Shown in pieces: positions 4,061-53,755 of a DNA stretch of 64,000 bases. The DNA is taken from positions 50,422-114,421 of the forward strand of contig JAOAJN010000001.1 in NCBI GenBank assembly GCA_026414165.1, in the 5' to 3' direction. The notes beneath the pieces were generated by a model. It ran no database searches. It saw nothing but the letters and a program-made list of their open reading frames with translations, and was not told where the DNA came from. Each line of letters begins with the position of its first letter. The stretch's first letter is position 1. Both the position numbers and the translations under genes were made by a program. This DNA comes from Candidatus Methanomethylicaceae archaeon (GTDB lineage: Archaea > Thermoproteota > Methanomethylicia > Methanomethylicales > Methanomethylicaceae).

Positions 4061-4165
4061 CGCCGGGGAAGGGATTCGAACCCTTGCTCCCCAGAAGGGG
4101 AACCGGCTTACCTGTCCCTTTTTAAGATCTCGAGGCCGGCGCCTTAACCGCTCAGCCACCCCGGC
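4061..4165 (-). tRNA. tRNA-Ser(CGA)-like type II tRNA with an approximately 20-nt intron in the anticodon loop; no encoded CCA
   Basis: Reverse complement gives GCCGGGG...CCCCGGC acceptor stem, GTTCGAATCC T-loop, D-loop with GG, CUCGAGA loop with U33-CGA, long variable arm (CCCC/GGGG); 105 nt implies an intron. Confidence 0.7.
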
Positions 4166-16100: not shown

Positions 16101-16694
16101 ATGCAACGTAGAACTTTGGTAATGCTTGCCTTCATAACCATGTTCTGCCTGACAATTTACTCTGGTGCTTACGCCAGCTCACTTTCAAAAGCGGAGATCG
16201 TACACTTCTGGGTGGCTGTACCCGCTGGCAATGTGACTGAACCAAAAACCTTACGTGGTGCTGGTCCACCAATAAACATGGCCCCCATCATAATAGACTT
16301 AGACACAAGAGGCTTACCTAAGAACCTGCTCAACCCAAATGTGGAAGCCATCTCTACCCATTGGATCTACAATTTGGATAAAAGACCGTACAAACTCGGT
16401 CTAGATCTTATTAATACCCATTTTCCGGTGGAATGGGAAGTAAGATCCGAATGGCCTTACGATCCAACCACCCATACGTTCACCAAACCTTTACCACCTG
16501 GTCAAAGAATTCCCGGTCTCTCAATCGACTGGATATTCAAAATACCTGCGTATTATATGGATGAGCAAGTAATCTATGATGGTGGTTTACTTATCTTTGA
16601 CGCTGATTCTGGTCAACCACTTACATTCATCCCAATAAAGATCGTTAGAGGTGGAATCATTCCATCTCAAGGAGGTTTGGGAAGTTGTCATTAG
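16101..16694 (+). CDS. secreted protein of unknown function (N-terminal signal peptide, Trp/His-rich, C-terminal GSCH)
   Basis: MQRRTLVMLAFITMFCLTIYSGAYA signal peptide; no known motif; first gene of the cassette inserted between S19 and L22. Confidence 0.6.
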   Translation: MQRRTLVMLAFITMFCLTIYSGAYASSLSKAEIVHFWVAVPAGNVTEPKTLRGAGPPINMAPIIIDLDTRGLPKNLLNPNVEAISTHWIYNLDKRPYKLGLDLINTHFPVEWEVRSEWPYDPTTHTFTKPLPPGQRIPGLSIDWIFKIPAYYMDEQVIYDGGLLIFDADSGQPLTFIPIKIVRGGIIPSQGGLGSCH

Positions 16695-17587
16695 AGCGCA
16701 AAAAGCAAACACTCTTCAAAAACAAGTATCGTTATCTCTCTTGGATCCTTGGATTTCTAATCTTTGTGGGACCATTTTCACTACTTACCCGCTTAGTCTA
16801 CATGGTTATTGGCAATATATCCTTGCCAGATCTTCACACAATCTGCCTCAGAATGCCGCTCGATTGGGTTTTTTCTGGTAGGGTTTACAACCTGCTGGGA
16901 TCTCCAATAATGACTAGCTTTACCATAATCGTTCTAATCACCACACTCTTGGTTGGACCCATGTTCTGCGGATGGCTGTGCCCGGTAGGTGCTGTAAGCG
17001 AAGCTTTAAGCCGATTAGCACCGATACCGAAAAAATTCAGGCTTCACATCCAAGACCCTAATATTACGCGAAACTTGAGATTTGGTTTTCTTACGGGCTT
17101 CATCTTAGTCTCAATCCTAGTGGGACTTGGATATGCTTATGTAGGAAGTATTTGCTGCAGGTACTGCACGTCATCAGTCTTGCAGAACATTGTTAACGGT
17201 CTATTTGGCAATTCCTTGGCTTTTGAGTACTGGCATACTGGCTCGATTCTGACGCTCATTTTTTGGCTATTGGTGGGTGGCATATTCACGTTTGGTGGAA
17301 GAGGGTGGTGCATACTATTCTGTCCACTGGGGGCGGTATCGGGACTGATTCATGCCATAGGTGCCAAGATTGGATTTTATAGGACCGTGAAAAACGAAGA
17401 AGATTGCAAGAACTGCGGATCCTGTTCGGATATTTGTCCGATGTGGGCCATAGGTTCTGATAATTCCATAGAACGAACTCTTTGTATAAACTGCAAGGAA
17501 TGCATAAACAGATGCCCATCCCGTGCTTTTAGTATGATATGGGGGAGGCGAAAGAAAAGTGATTATGTCGATAATGAGGCATCTTAA
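16685..17587 (+). CDS. NapH/MauN-family membrane-bound polyferredoxin (2x CxxxCP transmembrane motifs plus two 4Fe-4S ferredoxin motifs)
   Basis: CGWLCPVGA and CILFCPLGA motifs, C-terminal CKNCGSCSDICP and CINCKECINRCP; multiple TM segments; true start probably an internal Met. Confidence 0.7.
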   Translation: MSLERKKQTLFKNKYRYLSWILGFLIFVGPFSLLTRLVYMVIGNISLPDLHTICLRMPLDWVFSGRVYNLLGSPIMTSFTIIVLITTLLVGPMFCGWLCPVGAVSEALSRLAPIPKKFRLHIQDPNITRNLRFGFLTGFILVSILVGLGYAYVGSICCRYCTSSVLQNIVNGLFGNSLAFEYWHTGSILTLIFWLLVGGIFTFGGRGWCILFCPLGAVSGLIHAIGAKIGFYRTVKNEEDCKNCGSCSDICPMWAIGSDNSIERTLCINCKECINRCPSRAFSMIWGRRKKSDYVDNEAS

Positions 17588-32368: not shown

Positions 32369-33193
32369 ATGCCTCGACCGTTCGATTTAAGCCGCTTCCT
32401 TGCCCTCCCTGGTAGGCGCCTGATAGCCATCACTGGCAAGGTACACGCGAGATCTGATGCCTTAGCCCGCTTGTTATCACTCTTAGAAAGGGAGCACATA
32501 AAGGTTTGTAGCGCTTTTGCAAACTTCGAAGGTGAATATGCCAGGATCCTTGCTTTTCTGGACGTGACGGACTCTGTCGTACCAGTCGAAGAGATCGGAA
32601 AGGTCTCGGAAATGCTGGGGATTTTCGAGGTCGAGAGTGTGACGAGATCGGCAGTAGAGGGCTTCATAGCTGATACAACATCTCACCCAATCGTTGCTGG
32701 ACAATACCGAACTATACTCCTCAGAAGCCCAGGCTACGAGGAATTCTTGGTCGGAATTCGCGAGTGGTTTGGTAGGAGCGGAGAGAATTTTCTATACCAC
32801 ATTGGATACCGCGTAGGTTTGGGCCACGTGAAGTTTCATATGGAGTTGGCTGAGAGAATAGGACTTAAGGATCCCGCCCTGATATACAAAAACATAAGCG
32901 CCGCCATGTTCCAGTGGGCGGGCTACGGTGTCGTGGAGGTCGAGGAGCTCGTGGAGGACCATGGGACTCTAGCAGTGCGAGACTCCTTTGAATGTGAGCT
33001 AGGGAAGGGTCGAGGGATAGTTTACAGTCAGTTTACCCGTGGGATTATTGCGGGAACATTGACAGAGCTATTCGGAAAGAGGTTCAACGTCGTGGAGAAG
33101 GAGTGTATAGCCAAGGGCGACCCAGTCTGCAGGTTTATGGTCAAGGCTTTGTCCGAGAGGAAGCCCACGAAAACCTATAATGTAGTTATTTAA
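32369..33193 (+). CDS. V4R-domain (4-vinyl reductase-like, COG1719) protein
   Basis: C-terminal FECELGKGRG...IAGTLTELFG...CIAKGDPVCRF resembles V4R; duplicated downstream. Confidence 0.5.
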   Translation: MPRPFDLSRFLALPGRRLIAITGKVHARSDALARLLSLLEREHIKVCSAFANFEGEYARILAFLDVTDSVVPVEEIGKVSEMLGIFEVESVTRSAVEGFIADTTSHPIVAGQYRTILLRSPGYEEFLVGIREWFGRSGENFLYHIGYRVGLGHVKFHMELAERIGLKDPALIYKNISAAMFQWAGYGVVEVEELVEDHGTLAVRDSFECELGKGRGIVYSQFTRGIIAGTLTELFGKRFNVVEKECIAKGDPVCRFMVKALSERKPTKTYNVVI

Positions 33194-33558: not shown

Positions 33559-34348
33559 ATGTACTACTCTTTTGACGTAGGGCGTTTTCTTGTTCAACCA
33601 TGCAGAACACTAATCGGATTTTTTGGGAGTATGAAATTAGGTGTCGCTGCCCTGCCGACTCTCGCCTCATTCTTGAGAGATCACAATATCACGGTTTGTC
33701 AAATTATTTCCTCATCCATAGAAGGGTGCCAAGATGAGCTGATGGTTTTAGCATTTCTAGACCTAACTCATTCGGACGTTCAATTAGAAAGACTGCTAGA
33801 AGAGATCAATGGAAGCGGTCTCTAAAATTTTGGAAGTTATAAAACCTGTAACAGAAGGTTTTATAGTGGATACAATATCTGCGCCAATAGTTGCTGGCAA
33901 AAATAGAGTGATAATCCTCAGGGATCAAGGCTATCGCCAACTCTTGACCGAGATCCGCAGACTCTTCGGCACAGGAGGAGAGGCGCTGCTTTATCACGTG
34001 GGGTTTAACATGGGCATTGGATATGCCAAACTCCACAAAGATCTTGCGGATAAAGTAGGAATTAAAGATCCTGTCGATATATATCAAAAAATAAGTTGTA
34101 AGATGTTCCAATGGGCAGGATTTGGGCGGAAGGAAGCTGTGGAGATCACCCCAAACCACGCCATCATTCATATCTACGACTCTTTTGAATGCGAGAATGG
34201 ATCCTCGGTAAGACCATATAGCCAGTTGGTTCGTGGATTAATAGCTGGTACTCTTGCGGGCCTCTTCAATAGGTCGTTTAATGTTACAGAAGACCTCTGC
34301 GCCGCGAAGGGGGATTCCCTATGCCGGTTTAAGGTGATAAGCAGGTAA
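33559..34348 (+). pseudogene. V4R-domain paralog split by a +1 frameshift near 33810-33825 (ORFs 33559..33825 and 33809..34348)
   Basis: The two adjacent ORFs align colinearly to the N- and C-halves of 32369..33193 (FDxxRFL...VLAFLDLT / EGFIVDTIS.PIVAG...FECE...CAAKGDSLCRF). Confidence 0.5.
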
Positions 34349-38297: not shown

Positions 38298-38951
38298 ATG
38301 TCCTCGCTTGAAACTGCTGATCTCCTCATACCTCTTGAGGTTTACTTAGCCGCGGGCATACACATAGGGACTCACGTCAAGACGAATGACATGCGCCCCT
38401 TTATTTACAGAGTTAGGCCTGATGGTCTCTATGTACTTGACGTGAGGAAAACAGATGAAAGGTTGAGGATCGCCTCGAAATTTATTTCTAGATTCAAAGG
38501 GGAAAAGGTCTATGCCGTTTCCGCAAGGCAATATGGATTCAAGCCTGTGGAAAAATTCGCCTCTTTGATAGGTGGTAGAGCGCTAACTGGTAGGTTCATA
38601 CCAGGAACCTTTACAAACCCGAAACTCCCCACATATGTGGAGCCCGAACTCTTGGTCGTTGCTGACCCGAGAGCCGACTGGCAGGCGATCTTAGAGTCCG
38701 CTGAGGTTGGCATCCCTGTGGTAGGCTTCTGTGACACAGACAATAGGTCTCAGCTCATAGATCTCGTTATCCCCATCAACAACAAGGGAAGGAAATCTTT
38801 GGCTTTGGCTTACTGGCTCCTCACAAGACAAATCCTAAGGGAACGTGGTGAGCTAGCACCTACCGCAGAGTTACCTGCGACAATAGAAGACTTCGAATCC
38901 AAAGTGCTTGTTGCTGAGGAGGAGTACGGAGGATACGATGTTGAAGGATAG
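38298..38951 (+). CDS. rps2: 30S ribosomal protein S2 (uS2)
   Basis: [17 protein letters not shown] typical of S2; 217 aa. Confidence 0.9.
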
Positions 38952-39792
38952 ACGACCTTCGGTAGCTGGATCTTTTTATGAAAGTTCGAAGGATGCCATA
39001 AGGGATCAGATGATCTGGTGCTTTCTCCATAAGATCGGTCCGAGATCCCTTCCTACTGGCATTGAGTACGCCGAGAGGCGCATCCTTGCGCTGGTCTCAC
39101 CTCATGCGGGTTACATCTATTCTGGTCCAGTAGCTGCCCATGGTTACTATCAACTTTCTAAAGAACCGGTCCCAGAGGTCGTTGTTATAATCGGTCCAAA
39201 CCACACAGGCATGGGTGCTGGAATATCCGTTTGGGGGGAAGGGACGTGGGCTACTCCGTTGGGCAGAGTGCCTGTAGATGCCGACCTTGCCAAAGACCTG
39301 GCTAACAAGGGCATTGTTGAGATAGACCAAGAGGCCCACCTCTATGAACACTCTATAGAGGTTCAGCTTCCTTTCCTACAGTTCATTTACCAGAACCAAA
39401 AAGATTTCAAGATACTTCCCATATGTATGATGCTCCAAGACTATATGACTTCTTTGGAGCTTGGAAACGCCTTGGCAGAGACGCTCAGAGACAAATCTTC
39501 TATAATTATAGCCAGCACAGATTTTTCTCACTACGTGCCCTATTCAGAGGCCTACAAAAAAGATTCTTTGGTTGGCGAATGCATAATAAAAATGGATGCC
39601 AAAGCCTTAAGCGAGACTGTTATTAGTGAGAATGTAAGTATGTGCGGGTCGGGTCCGGTGATGACTGCAATAGTGGCAGCTAAAAAACTAGGCGCTAACA
39701 CCTGTAAAAAACTCTGCTATGCAACGTCTGGAGACACATGCGGCTCCAAAGACGAAGTTGTCGGTTATGGGTCCTACATTATGCTTCGATAG
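38938..39792 (+). CDS. MEMO1-family protein (AmmeMemoRadiSam system protein B-like)
   Basis: [21 protein letters not shown] motifs; ATG overlaps the S2 stop by 14 nt. Confidence 0.7.
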
Positions 39793-39862
39793 TCTGAAAA
39801 ATTGCTGGACAAAAAGTCATCACCACAAAGATTAATTCCCTTCTCTTAAACAAGAGACTATC

Positions 39863-40687
39863 ATGGAAAACATAAAATTACAAATTCCCTTTTCACTACC
39901 GTTGTTGGGAGAGACATTTATAGAGGTTGGAAACCCAGTTTTATTATCAACTATAAACTTCTTTACTAATGTTGATGTAACCTTCAGCGAATCTTCAGAG
40001 GCTTATGTGCCGCTCTCTTCTCCTCCTTTGAAGAGGTTGGTTGAAAATCATCTGAATACTATCGGAAAGCATTTCACATTCCATATTGCTCCTTCTGGTA
40101 ACGATTATCTAACCCTGACCTCGGCACTCTATATCGCTGACTCGGAATCTTTGGAAGATTATGTCCCATATTTCCTTAGTAGGCTTAACGGGAGACCTCT
40201 GATGACAATAGTAAGATCACTATCGGCCCTCTCCGGGGGTTTCGTTGTCTGTAGGAAGGGAGAGGGCATGGTCTCATTGAGTGGTAACCCCGACGCTTCG
40301 ATTCTTCTCCACACAAAAGTCCGTAAAAAATCATCGAGCGGAGCGCTTAGAAGATTTTATGATGCCTTCCCAGATCTTTCCCAGCCTATATGGCACACAA
40401 TGGGGCATATTGTGATTGAGGGCAGTAAGGCGATAAGGGAGAGCAATGCTAGGAAACTTGGCTGTTTGATGACTCTTGAATCATCGATTGGCTGCGCCAT
40501 TGGGCTATTAAAACCAAAAGACCTCGCCAGGCTTTCCAAGATAAGAATTGCCTATGGAGCTAAAATCGTATCTTTTGGAGACATTAGGGGAGATCTTATA
40601 TTGTCCCCGAGGGAAACCTCAACATGGGGCGAGTATCAGAGGTTCTATTTTACCACAACGGGGGTGAATGAAGTTTACGAAGGTTGA
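39863..40687 (+). CDS. degenerate GHMP-kinase-like protein in the mevalonate kinase position (canonical ATP-binding motifs lost)
   Basis: Occupies the mvk slot of the conserved S2-mvk-ipk-idi2-idsA cluster. Weak colinear resemblance to the GHMP motifs: LLGE...G.P.L (motif I), HIAPSGNDYLTLTSA in place of PxGSGLGSSAA, AYGAKIVSFGDIRGD in place of GAKxxGAGGGG. Confidence 0.4.
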   Translation: MENIKLQIPFSLPLLGETFIEVGNPVLLSTINFFTNVDVTFSESSEAYVPLSSPPLKRLVENHLNTIGKHFTFHIAPSGNDYLTLTSALYIADSESLEDYVPYFLSRLNGRPLMTIVRSLSALSGGFVVCRKGEGMVSLSGNPDASILLHTKVRKKSSSGALRRFYDAFPDLSQPIWHTMGHIVIEGSKAIRESNARKLGCLMTLESSIGCAIGLLKPKDLARLSKIRIAYGAKIVSFGDIRGDLILSPRETSTWGEYQRFYFTTTGVNEVYEG

Positions 40688-41441
40688 TTTCGTCATAAAA
40701 CTTGGCGGCAGCGCTATAACAAAGAAGGACCAACCATTTACCCCAAACTTAGAAGTCATCAAAACCATCTCTTTGGAACTATCCCAGATATATAATAGAC
40801 CGTCTCTGATCCTAGTTTATGGTGGCGGTTCTTTTGGACATCACGTGGCAAGAAGGTACATTAGCGGAGGCTTGATAAGGGATATAAAAGGAACTGCCGA
40901 GATCCACTCTGCAATGTTCTCCTTGACCAAAATCCTAACTGATCACTTCCTTCAGCAAGACCTCCCCGTTTTCGCGATAAACTCCTCATCCTCTTTCATA
41001 TTAAAGAATGGCAATCTACAAGAGGCTTTTTACACACCATTGGAGCTCTCTCTAGAACGCGGTTTGATACCTTTGATTGGTGGCGATGTGGTCTTTGACT
41101 CATCATCTGGCATCCGCATACTATCGGGGGACAGGATAGCATCGATGCTCGCCAAAACCTTTCAAGCGAAGGTTTTAGCCTTTGGAACCAATGTAGACGG
41201 GATTCTCTTAAAGGGATCAACAGTTCCAAAAATAAAGGCTCAAGAAATTGAAAAGATTTTAGATCACATAAAGCAAATGCAGGAGGATGTTACAGGGGGG
41301 ATGTCCGGAAAACTTAGGGAGATTGCTCGCTACCTAGTTGAAGGTGGAAAATCAGCCATAATCTTTAATATAACCCGTCCCGGTCAACTTACTAGACTCC
41401 TATCGGGTAAGGAGGTATTAGGGACAAATTTTGAGAGTTGA
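40668..41441 (+). CDS. ipk: isopentenyl phosphate kinase (amino-acid kinase family)
   Basis: IKLGGSAITKK, VYGGGSFGHH motifs; cluster context. Confidence 0.8.
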   Translation: MKFTKVDFVIKLGGSAITKKDQPFTPNLEVIKTISLELSQIYNRPSLILVYGGGSFGHHVARRYISGGLIRDIKGTAEIHSAMFSLTKILTDHFLQQDLPVFAINSSSSFILKNGNLQEAFYTPLELSLERGLIPLIGGDVVFDSSSGIRILSGDRIASMLAKTFQAKVLAFGTNVDGILLKGSTVPKIKAQEIEKILDHIKQMQEDVTGGMSGKLREIARYLVEGGKSAIIFNITRPGQLTRLLSGKEVLGTNFES

Positions 41442-42532
41442 TTATATTGATATCCGATCGAAAGCTGTCCCATATTCTGATATGCCGAGATTTGGACGTC
41501 TCCTACAAAAAAGGAACACATCTTGATGATGTCGAACTGATCCATTGTGCACTTCCCGAACTCGACCTGGAAGATGTTGACATCTCAACAAAACTGTTCG
41601 GGAAGAAACTATCGGCACCAATTATAATCTCCTCAATGACAGGTGGTCATCCTGAAACCAAAAATATTAATGAGCGCCTTGCAAAGGCAGCCAATAGGCT
41701 CGGTATAGGCATCTGTGTGGGTAGCCAGCGTGCAGCTTTGGAGGACCCCCGTCTAAAAGATACATTTCGGATTGTTCGCGAGATCTCAAAAGATCTGCTT
41801 GTTATTGCCAACATGGGTGCTGCTCAACTGCTCTCACCTAAGGCTAGAGAATATGCAGAAGCTGCCATATCTATGATAGATGCCGATGCGTTGGCTGTTC
41901 ACCTCAATCCACTTCAAGAACTTGTTCAACCTGGCGGAGACGTCAGATTTAAGGGGATAATCCACGCGCTCTCAGACTTAGTTAAATCGCTCAATAAACC
42001 TTTGATTGTAAAGGAGATTGGGTGCGGTATCTCTAGGGAAGTAGCCCAAGAAATTGTGAGAATTGGGGCATCTGCAATAGATGTTGCAGGTGCTGGAGGT
42101 ACGAGCTGGGCTGCCGTGGAATTTTATAACTCTAAACAGAGCGGCGATAGTTTGAAATCAGAGGTGGCTGAGACCTTCTGGAACTGGGGCATTCCTACTG
42201 CTATGAGCCTCTGCGAGGTCTTGTCTCTCAAATCAAACTTGACCGTAATCTCTTCCGGTGGCATACAGAACGGTCTTCATGTCGCAAAATCGATCGCTCT
42301 GGGGGCTGATCTTGCTGGCATGGCAAGACCTTTGCTAATACCTGCCTTCTCGAGCGAAGAGGCTATAGTCGCCCGTCTTAGCCGCATAATCGCCGAGCTT
42401 AAAACAACATTAATGCTGCTAGGTTGTCGAGATTTAGCCCAGCTTAAATCTGTTCCACTCGTAATAAAAGGGGATCTCCTCAACTGGGTTCTTCAGAGAG
42501 GTCTTGAGGTGAGAGGTATTGATAGAAGATAA
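41438..42532 (+). CDS. fni: type 2 isopentenyl-diphosphate isomerase (FMN-dependent IDI-2)
   Basis: SSMTGG, NMGAAQL, GAGGTSWAAVE motifs; 364 aa. Confidence 0.85.
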   Translation: MIILISDRKLSHILICRDLDVSYKKGTHLDDVELIHCALPELDLEDVDISTKLFGKKLSAPIIISSMTGGHPETKNINERLAKAANRLGIGICVGSQRAALEDPRLKDTFRIVREISKDLLVIANMGAAQLLSPKAREYAEAAISMIDADALAVHLNPLQELVQPGGDVRFKGIIHALSDLVKSLNKPLIVKEIGCGISREVAQEIVRIGASAIDVAGAGGTSWAAVEFYNSKQSGDSLKSEVAETFWNWGIPTAMSLCEVLSLKSNLTVISSGGIQNGLHVAKSIALGADLAGMARPLLIPAFSSEEAIVARLSRIIAELKTTLMLLGCRDLAQLKSVPLVIKGDLLNWVLQRGLEVRGIDRR

Positions 42533-43484
42533 AATCAGGCAAGTCGCCTCCCTCATAGACCCGCTTCTAAAGAACTCGCTATCTGGAAGCGATAACTTGC
42601 ATAAGGCTGCCCTATACCTTCCTAGCCAAGGCGGTAAAAGGATGCGCGCCTTCCTTGTGGTGAAATCATGCGAGCTAGTAGGCGGCGACGTAAAATTAGC
42701 TCTCCCTGCCGCTGCTGCTATAGAAGTGCTCCACAACTTCACCCTTATACATGACGACATCATGGATCATGATCTTCTGAGAAGAGGGGTGCCTACTGTT
42801 CACACACTATGGGGCGTACCCATGGGAATTCTTGCAGGGGACTTTCTCTTTGCCAAAGCCTTTAACATATTGCTCTCTACTAATGTTGAGCCAGATCGCA
42901 TAAGGTGCGCCGCTCAGATCATGTCCGAATCCGCCGTTAGCCTCTCTGAAGGGCAGAGTATGGACATGGAATTCGAATCTAAGCTTGACGTATCTGAAGA
43001 AGATTATCTATTAATGGTGACTAAAAAAACCGCATCCCTTTTCGAGGCCAGCGCAGAGATCGGTGCTATAATAGGCGGAGGAGATCCAAATCTGATATCA
43101 CTTCTTGGTGAATACGGTCGTAACTTAGGAGTAGGCTTCCAGATCTTTGACGATTACTTGGGACTGACTTCCAAGGAGGAAATCTTGGGGAAATCCATAG
43201 GCAACGACATAAGGGAGGGCAAGAAGACTTTAATCATAATCAGGTCTATAAACTCGCCTCTGAGAGAAAGAACTCTCTCACTTCTGGGGAAGCGGTATGC
43301 ATCCGATGAAGAAATCGCCGAACTGGTTAATGCCCTGCGACGTGAAGGGATAGACGATTATGTGCTAAAGAAGGCAAAACTTCACATAGATCTTGCTATA
43401 AGGGCTCTCTCCATCCTACCAGACTCGCCCGCAAAGCAAGATCTCGTGGAATTGGCAAGATATGCAATTTCTAGAATAAAATAG
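42519..43484 (+). CDS. idsA: geranylgeranyl diphosphate synthase (trans-polyprenyl synthetase)
   Basis: LIHDDIMDHD (first DDxxD) and FQIFDDYLG (second); 321 aa. Confidence 0.85.
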   Translation: MIEDKIRQVASLIDPLLKNSLSGSDNLHKAALYLPSQGGKRMRAFLVVKSCELVGGDVKLALPAAAAIEVLHNFTLIHDDIMDHDLLRRGVPTVHTLWGVPMGILAGDFLFAKAFNILLSTNVEPDRIRCAAQIMSESAVSLSEGQSMDMEFESKLDVSEEDYLLMVTKKTASLFEASAEIGAIIGGGDPNLISLLGEYGRNLGVGFQIFDDYLGLTSKEEILGKSIGNDIREGKKTLIIIRSINSPLRERTLSLLGKRYASDEEIAELVNALRREGIDDYVLKKAKLHIDLAIRALSILPDSPAKQDLVELARYAISRIK

Positions 43485-43497
43485 GAGTGACTCTGCC

Positions 43498-45207
43498 TTG
43501 AGTGAAGATCTCCGCACTATATTAAAGAAACACGCCCTTCTAAACGCATTGAAATATGATGGAAAGGCCGAAGTCAAGGCTGTGGTTGGAAAAGCCCTCT
43601 CTGAGAGCCCTCACCTCAGAAAAATGGCTTCTGAAGTCTTTAAAATTGCAGCTGATGTGGTCGCCGAGATAAATACGATGTCTATCGCGGATCAAAAGTC
43701 CTTGGCAGAGGCCCTTGGTATATCATTAATGAAGGAGAAGCCAAAAAAAGAGGAGCATTTACTCCCGCCTCTCCCAAACGTTCAAAAGTACTCTAGAATC
43801 CATGTAAGATTTGCTCCTAATCCTGACTCTGTAATCCATTTGGGCAACACACGCGCTGCTTTGCTGAGCGATGAATATGCTAAGATGTACCGCGGGATCT
43901 TCACCCTTCGCTTTGAAGATACATCCCCCTCTGTGAAACCCCCGATACCTGAAGCATACGAAGTGATACGTGAGGATCTGCGATGGCTTGGAGTTATCTG
44001 GCACGAGGAATACATACAATCCGAACGCCTCCCGATTTACTATGAGTATGCTGAGAAGCTGCTCAGCATGTGCAATGCTTATGTTTGTACATGTCGCCCA
44101 GAACAATTCCGCGAAAGAGTTCTTGCCAAGACCCCTTGCCCCTGCAGAGATCTACCGCCCGAGACTCATCTGAAGCGATGGGAGGAGATGCTTAACGGCA
44201 CTATAAGAAAAGGTGGTGCAGTGGTCCGCATAAAGACCGATCTTAACCATCCAAACCCTGCCATAAGGGATTGGCCTGCGATGCGCATAGATACAAAACC
44301 CCACCCACTCCAAGGTAAAAAGTATAGAGTGTGGCCCCTCTACAATTTTGCATGCGGGATAGACGACCACCTCATGGGAATAACCCATATCCTTCGAGGA
44401 AAAGAGCACGAAGTCAACACCCAAAGACAGCTTTACTTGTACAAGTACTTGGGATGGGAATACCCTGAGGCCATTCATTATGGTCGACTTAAAATAGAAG
44501 GAGCTGTGCTAAGTAAGTCCAAGATACGCCAAGGCATAGAGTCTGGAATCTACAAGGATTGGAGCGATCCAAGGCTTGGCACAATTGCCGCTCTTAGGAA
44601 GCGAGGATTTTTGCCAGAGACGATAAGGCGTCTGATACTTGAGGTTGGCGTAAAACCCTCTGAGGCAATGATTAGTTGGGATAACTTGGAAGCAATCAAC
44701 AGAAAGTTGTTGGATCCAGTCACAAAACGTTTTGTCTTCGTACCCGAACCCGTGCCATTACGGATCTTAGATTTACCAAAGGAGTTTATAGCACAAATAC
44801 CATTGCACCCAGATCACCCAGAATGGGGGGGAATTGCCCACAAGATAAGTCCATCTTTGAACACAATCATGGTCTCCTCAAAAGATCTATCTTCATTTAA
44901 AAATGGATCCATATTCCGCCTTATGAACCTCTTCAACGTAAAACTCTTGGATTCCTCTAGATGTGCCTTCTTCAGCGAAAGTGTAGCAGACGTGAAATCC
45001 CTTGGCGTACCTATAATCCAATGGCTTCCCAATGACGCAGGAACCCAACTATCTGTCATAATGCCCGATGCTAAGGTCACGGAGGGGGTAGTCGATAAAA
45101 ACATTCTCAACGAATCCTTACCTGGCACATTCCAATTTTACAGGTTTGGATTTGTGAAAGTCTATCGGGAAGACTCCCGCTTAGTTGGCTACTACACACA
45201 CGGTTAG
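43498..45207 (+). CDS. gltX: glutamyl-tRNA synthetase (archaeal/eukaryotic type)
   Basis: RFAPNPDSVIHLGNTRAAL (HIGH variant), VLSKSK (KMSKS); 569 aa. Confidence 0.85.
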   Translation: MSEDLRTILKKHALLNALKYDGKAEVKAVVGKALSESPHLRKMASEVFKIAADVVAEINTMSIADQKSLAEALGISLMKEKPKKEEHLLPPLPNVQKYSRIHVRFAPNPDSVIHLGNTRAALLSDEYAKMYRGIFTLRFEDTSPSVKPPIPEAYEVIREDLRWLGVIWHEEYIQSERLPIYYEYAEKLLSMCNAYVCTCRPEQFRERVLAKTPCPCRDLPPETHLKRWEEMLNGTIRKGGAVVRIKTDLNHPNPAIRDWPAMRIDTKPHPLQGKKYRVWPLYNFACGIDDHLMGITHILRGKEHEVNTQRQLYLYKYLGWEYPEAIHYGRLKIEGAVLSKSKIRQGIESGIYKDWSDPRLGTIAALRKRGFLPETIRRLILEVGVKPSEAMISWDNLEAINRKLLDPVTKRFVFVPEPVPLRILDLPKEFIAQIPLHPDHPEWGGIAHKISPSLNTIMVSSKDLSSFKNGSIFRLMNLFNVKLLDSSRCAFFSESVADVKSLGVPIIQWLPNDAGTQLSVIMPDAKVTEGVVDKNILNESLPGTFQFYRFGFVKVYREDSRLVGYYTHG

Positions 45208-53233: not shown

Positions 53234-53755
53234 GTGTCTTATTTGGGCCTTCTTAGGTTGCCCGAGTGGCTAAGGTCCGAACTCTCAAAGCCTTATGGCA
53301 TACTTCTCACAGGCGACTTAGAATCCAACGTTAATTCTGTTCTGTCTCTAATAAAAGATGAGCGCCCTCCTAAAGTTATTGTTGTTGGAGATTACGCTCT
53401 GACTGGCTTTATAAAATTTGGCTACATTCCTAGTCTTGGCATATTCGACAGAAAGACTAAACGATCTCCTTTCCCCTTGACTATAAATCCCACAGAGAGT
53501 GTAGTTAACCCCCCTGGTCATATATCAGACGAGGCTATCCTTGCAATTAGACGCCTCCTCTCATCCTCCACTTCATCACTTTTATTTGTGGATGGAGAGG
53601 AGGATCTTTTAGCCCTCCCTGCAATACTCCACTCACCTGAAGGCTCTTTCGTGATCTATGGCATTCCATCTGTTGGGATGATGCTTGTAAAAGTCGATAA
53701 AGATGTAAAGAAAAAAGTTTCAGAGATTTTGGACAATTTTGAGCGAGTGTTCTGA
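53234..53755 (+). CDS. GTP-dependent dephospho-CoA kinase (DUF359)
   Basis: VIVVGDYALTGF...GIFDRKTKR motif; conserved position after spt4. Confidence 0.7.
   Translation: MSYLGLLRLPEWLRSELSKPYGILLTGDLESNVNSVLSLIKDERPPKVIVVGDYALTGFIKFGYIPSLGIFDRKTKRSPFPLTINPTESVVNPPGHISDEAILAIRRLLSSSTSSLLFVDGEEDLLALPAILHSPEGSFVIYGIPSVGMMLVKVDKDVKKKVSEILDNFERVF

What the first reader, a model, noticed from the sequence alone, without database searches (positions are those of the whole stretch)
39863..40687. Protein in the mevalonate-kinase slot appears to be a GHMP-kinase homolog with degenerated catalytic motifs
The conserved archaeal cluster S2 - mvk - ipk - idi2 - idsA is intact except that the mvk-position ORF (274 aa) lacks the motif-II P-loop (PxGSGLGSSAA; here HIAPSGNDYLTLTSA) and the motif-III glycine-rich loop (here GAKIVSFGDIRGD). 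It retains only weak colinear resemblance to the GHMP-kinase fold. This suggests a pseudo-enzyme or a repurposed binding protein. It raises the question of how mevalonate is phosphorylated in this organism.
Basis: inference. Interest (0 to 1): 0.6.

Follow-up and report, generated by a model that had tools for sequence, protein, structure and literature searches.

The report
Kinase-dead mevalonate kinase ortholog, conserved
In a family of methane-producing archaea, the gene that normally encodes mevalonate kinase (a key step in making membrane lipids) has kept its fold and operon position but lost every part needed for kinase chemistry, yet it is still kept by selection, so the protein must do something else and the kinase step must be done some other way.

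Summary
ORF 39863-40687 (+, 274 aa) lies in the archaeal slot S2 - Memo - MVK - IPK - IDI2 - GGPPS - GluRS and is a true full-length homolog of mevalonate kinase (hhalign 99.4%, E 1.7e-21). An AlphaFold model (pLDDT 93) matches archaeal MVK structures best. Every element of GHMP phosphotransfer is gone:
- the motif I Lys and His
- the motif II P-loop
- the Mg-binding Glu
- the PSGID catalytic-Asp loop, where an invariant Arg now sits
- the motif III glycine loop
- about 55 residues in total

No Pfam GHMP domain is detected in any of 18 members scanned.

This is not decay. The family is a single clade of 28 sequences (26 clusters at 90% identity in 5.8 billion proteins), and every named member comes from Ca. 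Methanomethylicaceae or Methanomethylicus. It always occupies the same slot and has dN/dS 0.11, like its neighbours. It also has its own invariant polar residues (D81, R118, E206, W177, H178, H182). Sister lineages (Culexarchaeia, other Methanomethylicia) have a canonical MVK in the same slot.

The best reading is a kinase-dead, repurposed MVK ortholog, probably ligand-binding or regulatory. I could not determine whether a second MVK exists elsewhere in these genomes. I found no literature on this.

The parts
39863..40687 (+). Degenerate mevalonate-kinase ortholog ('dMVK'), 274 aa
   Evidence: ORF. Weak NCBIfam MVK hit at 31.9 bits against a cutoff of 403. hhalign to canonical MVKs 99.4%. AF2 pLDDT 93.4. 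Foldseek top hits are M. mazei MVK and MKbur. dN/dS 0.112.
39884..39940 (+). Motif I remnant, IPFSLPLLGETFIEVGNPV (res 8-26). The Lys is replaced by Ser11 and the GEH His by Thr18. G16, E17 and P25 are kept.
   Evidence: The roles of the Lys9 and His16 equivalents in M. mazei MVK come from PMC6283576.
40082..40138 (+). Motif II (P-loop) remnant, HIAPSGNDYLTLTSALYIA (res 74-92). There is no Gly/Ser-rich loop. An invariant Asp81 sits at the start of the helix.
   Evidence: The model has a helix at residues 81-92.
40175..40240 (+). Remnant of the catalytic-loop region, LSRLNGRPLMTIVRSLSALSGG (res 105-126). The Mg-binding Glu and the PSGID Asp are absent. Invariant Arg118 (40214-40216) falls at or near the Asp position.
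   Evidence: canonical D160 in 24/24 versus R118 in 28/28 in the L-INS-i alignment. Other aligners place R118 within about 3 residues of that position. No acidic residue is conserved here in any alignment.
40241..40285 (+). Retained strand, FVVCRKGEGMVSLSG (res 127-141). R131 is invariant and residue 132 is mostly K/R. It corresponds to the YRKxEGF strand of TACK-archaeal (Thermoproteota-type) MVKs and to the L. major MVK Tyr167/Arg169 strand that binds the mevalonate carboxylate.
   Evidence: The L. major residue roles are from PMC6283576. The correspondence rests on spacing from the catalytic Asp and is an inference.
40355..40432 (+). Most conserved C-domain helix, FYDAFPDLSQPIWHTMGHIVIEGSKA (res 165-190). 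F165, W177, H178, H182 and G187 are invariant or nearly so.
   Evidence: This is the best-matching stretch to canonical MVKs.
40478..40480 (+). Glu206, invariant in the family, replacing the conserved Asn of the canonical LMNINH helix.
   Evidence: E in 28/28 members; N in 20/24 canonical. The region between G200 and G214 aligns without gaps.
40550..40606 (+). Motif III remnant, AYGAKIVSFGDIRGDLILS (res 230-248). G232 and K234 are kept and the TGAGGGG loop is lost.
40668..40687 (+). 20-nt overlap of the dMVK stop region with the IPK start codon, with GGGGGTGA directly upstream of the ATG. This suggests translational coupling.
   Evidence: Canonical loci show the same kind of overlap (11-14 nt in L001 and L012).
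38298..38951 (+). Ribosomal protein S2, the upstream anchor of the conserved cluster.
38908..39792 (+). Memo-like / AmmeMemoRadiSam system protein B. The true start is probably about 10 codons into the listed ORF.
   Evidence: Pfam PF01875, E 5e-82. TIGR04336. Orthologs are 283 aa.
40668..41441 (+). Isopentenyl phosphate kinase. It looks canonical.
   Evidence: NF040647 at 179.8 bits, cutoff 120. PDB IPKs at E 4.6e-35, with the KLGGS, GGGSFGH and DVTGGM motifs present.
41438..42532 (+). Type 2 IPP isomerase.
   Evidence: TIGR02151, E 1.1e-122.
42519..43484 (+). Geranylgeranyl diphosphate synthase (IdsA-type).
   Evidence: PF00348, E 4.6e-71. NF041003 / NF040698.
43498..45207 (+). Glutamyl-tRNA synthetase, the downstream anchor of the cluster.
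39826..39841 (+). A/T-rich TATA-like element (ACAAAGATTAATTCCC) about 30 nt upstream of the ATG, a possible operon promoter with a very short leader.
   Evidence: Read from the sequence. This is inference only and was not tested.

Best explanation
The ORF is the positional ortholog of archaeal mevalonate kinase. In the common ancestor of the Methanomethylicaceae it lost all GHMP phosphotransfer machinery and was then fixed in a new, non-kinase role.

Shown here:
1. It has full-length homology to MVK and the GHMP fold.
2. It has lost the motif I Lys and His, the motif II P-loop, the Mg-binding Glu, the catalytic-Asp loop, the motif III loop, and about 55 residues.
3. It forms one clade, always in the same operon slot, overlapping the IPK gene.
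4. It is under purifying selection as strong as its neighbours.
5. It has its own invariant polar residues in what was the active-site region (D81, R118, E206, W177, H178, H182), and it keeps the basic R131/K132 strand that binds the mevalonate carboxylate in other MVKs.

Inferred:
- It cannot bind MgATP or transfer phosphate in the GHMP manner.
- It most likely still binds an anionic mevalonate-pathway metabolite (mevalonate, phosphomevalonate or a prenyl diphosphate).
- It acts as a non-catalytic regulator, sensor or scaffold of the isoprenoid operon enzymes. This parallels Gal3p, a kinase-dead galactokinase paralog, and Thermoplasma MBD, which reuses its dead ATP pocket for GGPP.
- Mevalonate phosphorylation would then be carried out by another protein encoded outside this window.
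For: Homology and fold:
- NCBIfam MVK models are the only hits (E 6.8e-8) and fall far below cutoff.
- A PDB profile search gives MVKs only.
- hhalign gives 99.4%, E 1.7e-21, over 239 columns.
- AF2 gives pLDDT 93.4 and pTM 0.91.
- Foldseek top hits are 4hac, 6mde, 6mdf and 8teb, at E ~1e-13 and TM 0.66-0.70.

Motif loss:
- Residue roles are from PMC6283576.
- No Pfam GHMP domain is found in 18/18 members.

Orthology by position:
- A canonical MVK sits in the same slot in Culexarchaeia and in other Methanomethylicia.
- The degenerate form sits in the same slot in every family locus seen.

Selection and age:
- dN/dS is 0.112, against 0.136 for IPK, 0.067 for IDI2 and 0.074 for GGPPS.
- The family is a monophyletic clade of 28 on the longest internal branch, and its internal divergence (1.08) is similar to that of canonical TACK-archaeal MVKs (0.93).
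- The excess divergence is specific to this gene. The between-group to within-canonical distance ratio is about 3.0 for MVK and 1.1-1.9 for six neighbouring genes.

Precedent: MBD lost its kinase function and reuses the ATP pocket for GGPP (PMC9254496).
Against: - No binding or activity data exist, so the specific role (ligand sensor or scaffold) is inference.
- I could not read model coordinates, so clustering of the family-specific residues in a pocket was not verified in 3D.
- The AF2 alignment was dominated by canonical MVKs (46 of 64 rows), which biases the model toward the canonical fold.
- No second MVK was found, but the search was weak. It covered only the 64-kb window, the top 120 relatives of a Culexarchaeia MVK, and an exact-8-mer scan of GTDB genomes. 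The claim that another enzyme does the kinase step is therefore untested.
- The invariant new polar residues are equally compatible with a new catalytic activity.
Confidence: 0.6

Rival explanations
1. It is a new ATP-independent enzyme of a modified mevalonate pathway. The GHMP scaffold would have been re-tooled (invariant R118, D81, E206, H178, H182) to act on mevalonate or a phosphorylated derivative. This parallels the evolution of mevalonate-3,5-bisphosphate decarboxylase from a kinase-decarboxylase, and GHMP-fold non-kinases such as ForT and RFAP synthase. Under this reading Methanomethylicaceae would run an undescribed route to isopentenyl phosphate.
For: - Invariant, family-specific charged and His residues replace catalytic positions, rather than drifting at random.
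- The protein is under strong purifying selection and its gene overlaps the IPK start codon, suggesting translational coupling to the next pathway enzyme.
- There is a precedent for kinase loss in a GHMP mevalonate-pathway enzyme (PMC9254496).
- GHMP-fold non-kinases (ForT) appear among the structural neighbours.
- No canonical MVK from this family turned up in any search.
Against: - No reaction can be proposed from sequence alone.
- All known mevalonate-pathway variants still need an initial ATP-dependent phosphorylation.
- The absence of another MVK, M3K, PMDh or AMPD in these genomes was not tested.
- Pseudoenzymes also commonly show conserved substitutions at former catalytic sites.
Confidence: 0.22
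2. It is still a mevalonate kinase with highly divergent motifs, or it becomes one in complex with a partner such as IPK that supplies the nucleotide site.
For: - It keeps the ancestral operon slot and the overlap with IPK.
- It retains E17, K234 and the R131/K132 strand.
- JGI pipelines label some members 'mevalonate kinase'.
- These organisms need the step: a cultured member of the class, M. petrocarbonis, makes archaeol and GDGTs (PMC12244365).
Against: - All residues known to bind MgATP, to bind mevalonate (His) and to act as the base are gone in 28/28 sequences, and the P-loop is replaced by an Asp-capped helix.
- The scores are far below the curated MVK cutoffs: 31.9 against 403 bits, and 20.7 against 163 bits.
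- IPK shows no unusual divergence or altered motifs that would suggest a new role.
Confidence: 0.1
3. It is a decaying pseudogene or non-functional relic, or an assembly or annotation artefact.
For: It has lost all catalytic motifs and about 55 residues. NCBI annotates it 'hypothetical protein'.
Against: - The reading frame is intact at 270-291 aa in all 26+ clusters, from many independent assemblies.
- dN/dS is 0.11 with dS about 1.1.
- 41 columns are >=90% conserved within the family.
- The family's internal divergence equals that of canonical MVKs, so it has persisted for a long time.
Confidence: 0.02

Closest known systems
Archaeal mevalonate kinase (EC 2.7.1.36; TIGR00549 / NF003036; e.g. 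Methanosarcina mazei MVK, PDB 6MDE/4HAC; Methanococcoides burtonii MVK, 8TEB)
   Same: - The same two-domain GHMP fold and colinear full-length homology.
- The same operon slot, between Memo and IPK.
- It retains G16-E17, the GG anchor, the R-K-x-E-G strand, the P-x-[WY]-H-x-x-G-H helix and the G-x-K of motif III.
   Different: - It lacks the motif I Lys and His, the motif II P-loop, the Mg-binding Glu, the PSGID catalytic Asp and the motif III Gly loop.
- It is about 55 aa shorter, with deletions of about 30 and 10 residues plus smaller ones of up to about 5.
- It fails every curated family threshold.
- It has acquired the invariant residues D81, R118 and E206.
Mevalonate 3,5-bisphosphate decarboxylase (MBD) of Thermoplasmatales
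   Same: MBD is a GHMP-superfamily enzyme of an archaeal mevalonate pathway that lost ATP binding and kinase activity during evolution. Its former ATP pocket was recycled for a lipid or GGPP ligand (PMC9254496). It shows that kinase loss with retention of the scaffold has happened before in this pathway.
   Different: MBD descends from phosphomevalonate/diphosphomevalonate decarboxylase, not from MVK. It keeps a catalytic Asp and a defined reaction. The present protein's closest structures are MVKs rather than decarboxylases, and no reaction is known for it.
GHMP-fold pseudo-kinases Gal3p (yeast) and XOL-1 (C. elegans) (from my own knowledge of the literature)
   Same: Both are GHMP kinase-family proteins that lack kinase activity and serve regulatory or ligand-sensing roles. 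Gal3p is a galactokinase paralog that still binds its sugar ligand. This is how I think the present protein most likely works.
   Different: They are eukaryotic and arose by duplication, with an active paralog retained. Gal3p keeps ATP binding. Here the syntenic ortholog itself degenerated, in archaea, in a core lipid pathway, and no active paralog has been identified.

Membership tests
Mevalonate kinase (EC 2.7.1.36; TIGR00549, NF003036) | Score at or above the curated family cutoff | tested here: not met
   NF003036 gives 31.9 bits against a cutoff of 403. TIGR00549 gives 20.7 bits against 163. Only residues ~125-238 match.
Mevalonate kinase (EC 2.7.1.36) | Motif I, P-x-K-x-I-L-x-G-E-H, with the catalytic/ATP Lys and the mevalonate-binding His | tested here: not met
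   Lys is 0/28 (S/T/A/P instead) and His is 0/28 (A/S/P/T instead). Only P, G and E are kept. Residue roles are from PMC6283576.
Mevalonate kinase / GHMP kinases | Motif II phosphate-binding loop, P-x-G-[SA]-G-[LM]-G-S-S-A-A (Pfam PF00288) | tested here: not met
   It is replaced by P-S-G-N-D-Y-L-T-L-T-S-A. PF00288 is not detected in 18/18 members at E<=0.1.
Mevalonate kinase | Mg-binding Glu and catalytic base Asp in E-x3-H-G-x-P-S-G-x-D | tested here: not met
   The Glu is 1/28. The PSGID loop is absent, and the Asp position is occupied by or adjacent to invariant Arg118. No conserved acidic residue appears in any of four alignments.
Mevalonate kinase / GHMP kinases | Motif III, K-[LI]-T-G-A-G-G-G-G | tested here: not met
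   Only G232 and K234 are kept. T, G, A, G, G and G are all replaced.
GHMP kinase superfamily (fold level) | Two-domain GHMP fold | tested here: met
   AF2 gives pLDDT 93.4. There are 183 PDB matches at E<=0.001; the 50 listed are nearly all GHMP-superfamily enzymes, and the top hits are archaeal MVKs (TM 0.66-0.70). Caveat: canonical MVKs dominate the alignment used for the model.
Mevalonate kinase (orthology) | Colinear homology and a conserved genomic position between Memo and IPK | tested here: met
   hhalign gives 99.4%. Synteny with canonical-MVK loci L001, L012 and L014-L018 is shown.
Mevalonate kinase | ATP-dependent phosphorylation of (R)-mevalonate at C5 | not testable with these tools
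   This needs an enzyme assay or complementation.
Mevalonate 3,5-bisphosphate decarboxylase / MDD-type decarboxylases | Closest similarity to the decarboxylase branch, with its conserved catalytic Asp | tested here: not met
   Decarboxylases rank below MVKs in the fold search. Sequence profiles hit only MVKs.
Pseudoenzyme (kinase-dead homolog maintained by selection) | Loss of catalytic residues, together with purifying selection and lineage-wide conservation | tested here: met
   Loss is shown, dN/dS 0.112, and the monophyletic, old clade. The actual lack of activity was not testable.

The most novel reading that the evidence does not exclude
Methanomethylicaceae, the Thermoproteota methyl-reducing methanogens, have no mevalonate kinase at all. 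They would convert mevalonate to isopentenyl phosphate by an undescribed route, in which this re-tooled GHMP protein is either a new ATP-independent enzyme or the substrate-binding subunit of a composite kinase. That would be a further variant of the archaeal mevalonate pathway.
Probability: 0.25. Interest if true: 0.85.

Novelty: new variant of a known kind. Interest (0 to 1): 0.62.

Why it matters
Mevalonate kinase has been treated as the one near-universal step of archaeal isoprenoid lipid synthesis. The known exception is the Thermoplasma-type pathway, which was itself a surprise when it was discovered.

Here an entire family of archaea has a kinase-dead protein in the MVK slot. The family belongs to the first methanogen lineage outside the Euryarchaeota to be brought into culture. 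Some pipelines still call the protein 'mevalonate kinase' (JGI), and others call it 'hypothetical protein' (NCBI), so metabolic reconstructions will either hide or misreport the gap.

There are two possible outcomes, and both are useful:
- A displaced MVK exists elsewhere in the genome. This protein is then the first MVK-derived pseudoenzyme or regulator in archaeal lipid synthesis.
- The first phosphorylation is done by unknown chemistry.

Both are directly testable, because a member of the class (M. petrocarbonis LWZ-6, complete genome, makes archaeol and GDGTs) is in pure culture.

Tried and rejected
- **AF2 from the 10 close orthologs alone.** This gave an unusable model (pLDDT 53). I repeated it with a 64-row alignment.
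- **GTDB genome scans.** It returned 18 canonical loci, none from Methanomethylicaceae, which is a weak negative.
- **Search for a second MVK.**
  - tblastn of four canonical MVKs against the window hit only the ORF itself.
  - A regex for GHMP motifs II and III in all six frames of the window found nothing.
  - None of the top 120 relatives of P0020 is named Methanomethylicaceae, and none lies on a contig of the same length as a carrier contig.
  - Name look-ups of unnamed NCBI hits gave nothing useful.
  - The rest of the genome could not be read with these tools.
- **IPK as a compensating kinase.** Its motifs are canonical and its divergence is not accelerated, so I found no support.
- **Pseudogene reading.** Rejected on dN/dS and conservation.
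- **Horizontal origin.** Rejected: the GC content matches the neighbours, and synteny and phylogeny place the gene with TACK-archaeal MVKs.
- **Literature.** Six text searches combining mevalonate or isoprenoid terms with Verstraetearchaeota, Methanomethylic* or Methanosuratincola found nothing relevant. The two 2024 Nature cultivation papers are not held.
- **Model coordinates.** They are not exposed, so I could not do a 3D pocket analysis.
Full report
**1. What is at the coordinates**

ORF 39863-40687 (+) starts with ATG and encodes 274 aa. Its neighbours, identified by Pfam and NCBIfam, are:
- ribosomal protein S2 (38298-38951)
- a Memo-like / AmmeMemoRadiSam-B protein (38908-39792; PF01875, E 5e-82)
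- the ORF
- isopentenyl phosphate kinase (40668-41441; NF040647, 179.8 bits against a cutoff of 120)
- type 2 IPP isomerase (41438-42532; TIGR02151, E 1e-122)
- GGPP synthase (42519-43484)
- GluRS (43498-45207)

The whole window is the archaeal ribosomal-protein super-operon region.

The ORF's stop region overlaps the IPK start codon by 20 nt, with a GGGGGTGA just upstream.

NCBI's model of this gene (260 aa) starts 14 codons too late. Residues 1-14 are conserved in orthologs, including the invariant P9 and P13.

**2. It is a real mevalonate-kinase homolog with the GHMP fold**

- Pfam finds nothing at E<=1.
- NCBIfam gives only two weak mevalonate-kinase hits: NF003036 at E 6.8e-8 and 31.9 bits against a cutoff of 403, and TIGR00549 at 20.7 bits against 163. 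Both cover residues ~125-238 only.
- A profile of 10 orthologs hits only MVKs in the PDB (8teb, 6mde, 4hac; E 7e-6 to 2e-4).
- An HMMER scan of 1.84 billion representatives gives 9 family clusters. After a wide gap come canonical MVKs of about 325 aa (best E 1.8e-13), mixed with weaker partial matches to long, apparently unrelated proteins.
- A profile-profile comparison of 18 family members against 24 canonical MVKs gives 99.4% probability, E 1.7e-21, over 239 aligned columns running from motif I to motif III.
- AF2 was poor with the shallow alignment (pLDDT 53). With a 64-row alignment it gave pLDDT 93.4 and pTM 0.91.
- Foldseek against the PDB ranks archaeal MVKs first (M. mazei 4hac/6mde/6mdf and MKbur 8teb; E ~1e-13; TM 0.66-0.70). 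Other GHMP enzymes follow.
- Caveat: 46 of the 64 rows in the AF2 alignment are canonical MVKs.

**3. The kinase machinery is gone**

Four independent alignments agree on this. Twenty-four canonical MVKs share 57 columns at >=90% conservation. The 28 family members keep only 13 of them, mostly Gly and Pro plus E17 and K234.

| Canonical element | State in the family |
|---|---|
| Motif I Lys (Lys9 in M. mazei MVK) | Ser/Thr/Ala/Pro in 28/28 |
| GEH His (His16, the key mevalonate contact; PMC6283576) | Ala/Ser/Pro/Thr in 28/28 |
| Motif II, S-x-I-P-x3-G-x-G-S-S-A-A | P-S-G-N-D-Y-L-T-L-T-S-A, with an invariant Asp81 at the start of the helix |
| Mg-binding Glu | lost |
| H-G-x-P-S-G-I-D catalytic loop | absent |
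| Motif III, T-G-A-G-G-G-G | V-S-F-G-D-I-R-G |

- By ungapped spacing from the conserved GG anchor, invariant Arg118 takes the place of the catalytic Asp. Other aligners place it within about 3 residues. None shows a conserved acidic residue there.
- Deletions of about 30 and 10 residues, plus smaller ones of up to about 5, account for the 274 against ~329 aa.
- No family member scores on any GHMP Pfam model.
- From established GHMP-kinase mechanism, I infer that the protein cannot bind MgATP or catalyse phosphoryl transfer in the known way.

**4. It is not decaying**

- Against the 78%-identical ortholog in L008, dN/dS is 0.112 (dS 1.1). The neighbours give 0.136 (IPK), 0.067 (IDI2), 0.074 (GGPPS) and 0.035 (Memo).
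- 41 columns are >=90% conserved within the family.
- Many of these are family-specific: L6, P13, D81, R118, S124, F127, F165, W177, G187, E206 (replacing a conserved Asn), G243 and F263.
- R131 (28/28) and the mostly basic residue 132 are retained. By spacing they correspond to the strand whose Tyr167 and Arg169 bind the mevalonate carboxylate in L. major MVK (PMC6283576). This correspondence is an inference.

**5. Distribution and origin**

- A profile search of 5.8 billion proteins finds only 26 clusters (270-291 aa, no Pfam domains). All named members come from Ca. Methanomethylicaceae, Verstraetearchaeota or Ca. Methanomethylicus sp.
- NCBI calls them 'hypothetical protein'. JGI occasionally calls them 'mevalonate kinase'.
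- A still more divergent member (P0030) also sits between Memo and IPK.
- In an NJ tree the 28 sequences form one clade on the longest internal branch. The clade's internal divergence (1.08) is similar to that of canonical TACK-archaeal MVKs (0.93). This points to one ancient event followed by long maintenance.
- The excess divergence is gene-specific. The between-group to within-canonical ratio is about 3.0 for MVK and 1.1-1.9 for S2, Memo, IPK, IDI2, GGPPS and GluRS.
- The closest canonical MVKs belong to Culexarchaeia (Ca. Culexmicrobium) and to another 'Methanomethylicia' MAG. They occupy exactly the same slot. The degenerate gene is therefore the positional ortholog, not an extra paralog.

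**6. How is mevalonate phosphorylated?**

This is unresolved.
- There is no other MVK or GHMP gene in the 64 kb.
- None of the top 120 relatives of the Culexarchaeia MVK is labelled Methanomethylicaceae, and none lies on a contig of the same length as a carrier contig.
- The GTDB scan with P0020 returned no Methanomethylicaceae locus, but it only finds exact 8-mer matches.
- IPK looks ordinary.
- A xenologous MVK, a Thermoplasma-type mevalonate-3-kinase route or a non-homologous kinase elsewhere in the genome cannot be excluded.
- A pure-culture member of the class, M. petrocarbonis LWZ-6, makes archaeol, GDGTs and GMGTs, requires yeast extract, and has a complete 1.54-Mb genome (PMC12244365). 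I could not verify that it carries the degenerate gene.

**7. Interpretation**

The best reading (confidence ~0.6) is a kinase-dead, selectively maintained MVK ortholog. It probably binds an anionic pathway metabolite through the retained basic strand and the new Arg118, and it acts in regulation or scaffolding of the isoprenoid operon. The kinase step would be supplied elsewhere.

Precedents:
- Thermoplasma MBD, a GHMP mevalonate-pathway enzyme that lost its kinase function and reuses the ATP pocket for GGPP (PMC9254496).
- Gal3p and XOL-1 (from my own knowledge of the literature).

Rivals:
- a new ATP-independent enzyme of a modified pathway (~0.22)
- a still-active or composite kinase (~0.10)
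- a relic or artefact (~0.02)

**8. Novelty**

Text searches found no paper linking mevalonate, mevalonate kinase or isoprenoids with this lineage. No curated family covers the protein.

I rate it a new variant of a known kind: a GHMP pseudoenzyme or repurposed GHMP scaffold, here derived from the MVK ortholog itself in a core archaeal lipid pathway.

Interest is 0.62. It would rise to about 0.85 if a genome census shows no alternative MVK.

Noticed in passing
window 4061-4165 (-): Rfam tRNA match (49 bits) spanning 105 nt, so it is probably an intron-containing archaeal tRNA. ARAGORN in bacterial mode reports no tRNA anywhere in the window.
   Followed up: partly
window 39863-39904: The public NCBI gene model (N3D12_00570, 260 aa) starts at a TTG 14 codons downstream of ATG 39863. 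The skipped residues include the invariant P9 and P13 of the motif I remnant, so the 274-aa model is the right one.
   Followed up: yes
L005/L006 6603-7951 (GCA_002504985.1, Methanomethylicus-type); L008-L010 3081-4310: In L005/L006 an IS200/IS605 TnpA + TnpB pair is inserted between the Memo gene and the degenerate MVK gene. In the window's close relatives (L008-L010) a TnpB sits between the methyltransferase and S13.
   Followed up: no
window 32369-33193 and 33809-34348 (+): Two V4R-domain ORFs lie in the otherwise gene-poor 31.3-34.5 kb gap of the ribosomal super-operon. Relatives carry a TnpB or a single V4R gene at the same place.
   Followed up: no
window 38908-38951: The Memo ORF as listed (TTG start) overlaps S2 by 44 nt. 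Orthologs are 283 aa, so the true start is probably the ATG about 10 codons in.
   Followed up: partly
L001 5570-6058; L012 13137-13664: A DUF2118 gene lies between GGPPS and GluRS in the loci that have a canonical MVK (Culexarchaeia and another Methanomethylicia MAG). It is absent from all Methanomethylicaceae loci that carry the degenerate gene.
   Followed up: no
protein P0039 (278 aa): This is a different short MVK-like protein. Its motif I is intact (KAPGNIFLLGEHSVVYG), but its motif II region is missing and its motif III is altered (KICGGGKGG). It may be an independent case of MVK erosion in another lineage.
   Followed up: no
window 53234-53755 (+): A DUF359 protein (PF04019, E 1.7e-32), the family of archaeal GTP-dependent dephospho-CoA kinases. 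It is ordinary, and I note it only because it is another kinase in the window.
   Followed up: no
window 16101-17587 (+): A 197-aa ORF with a signal-peptide-like N-terminus and no Pfam hit is followed by a 300-aa polyferredoxin-like membrane protein (Fer4_5 / Fer4). The pair interrupts the ribosomal-protein operon.
   Followed up: no
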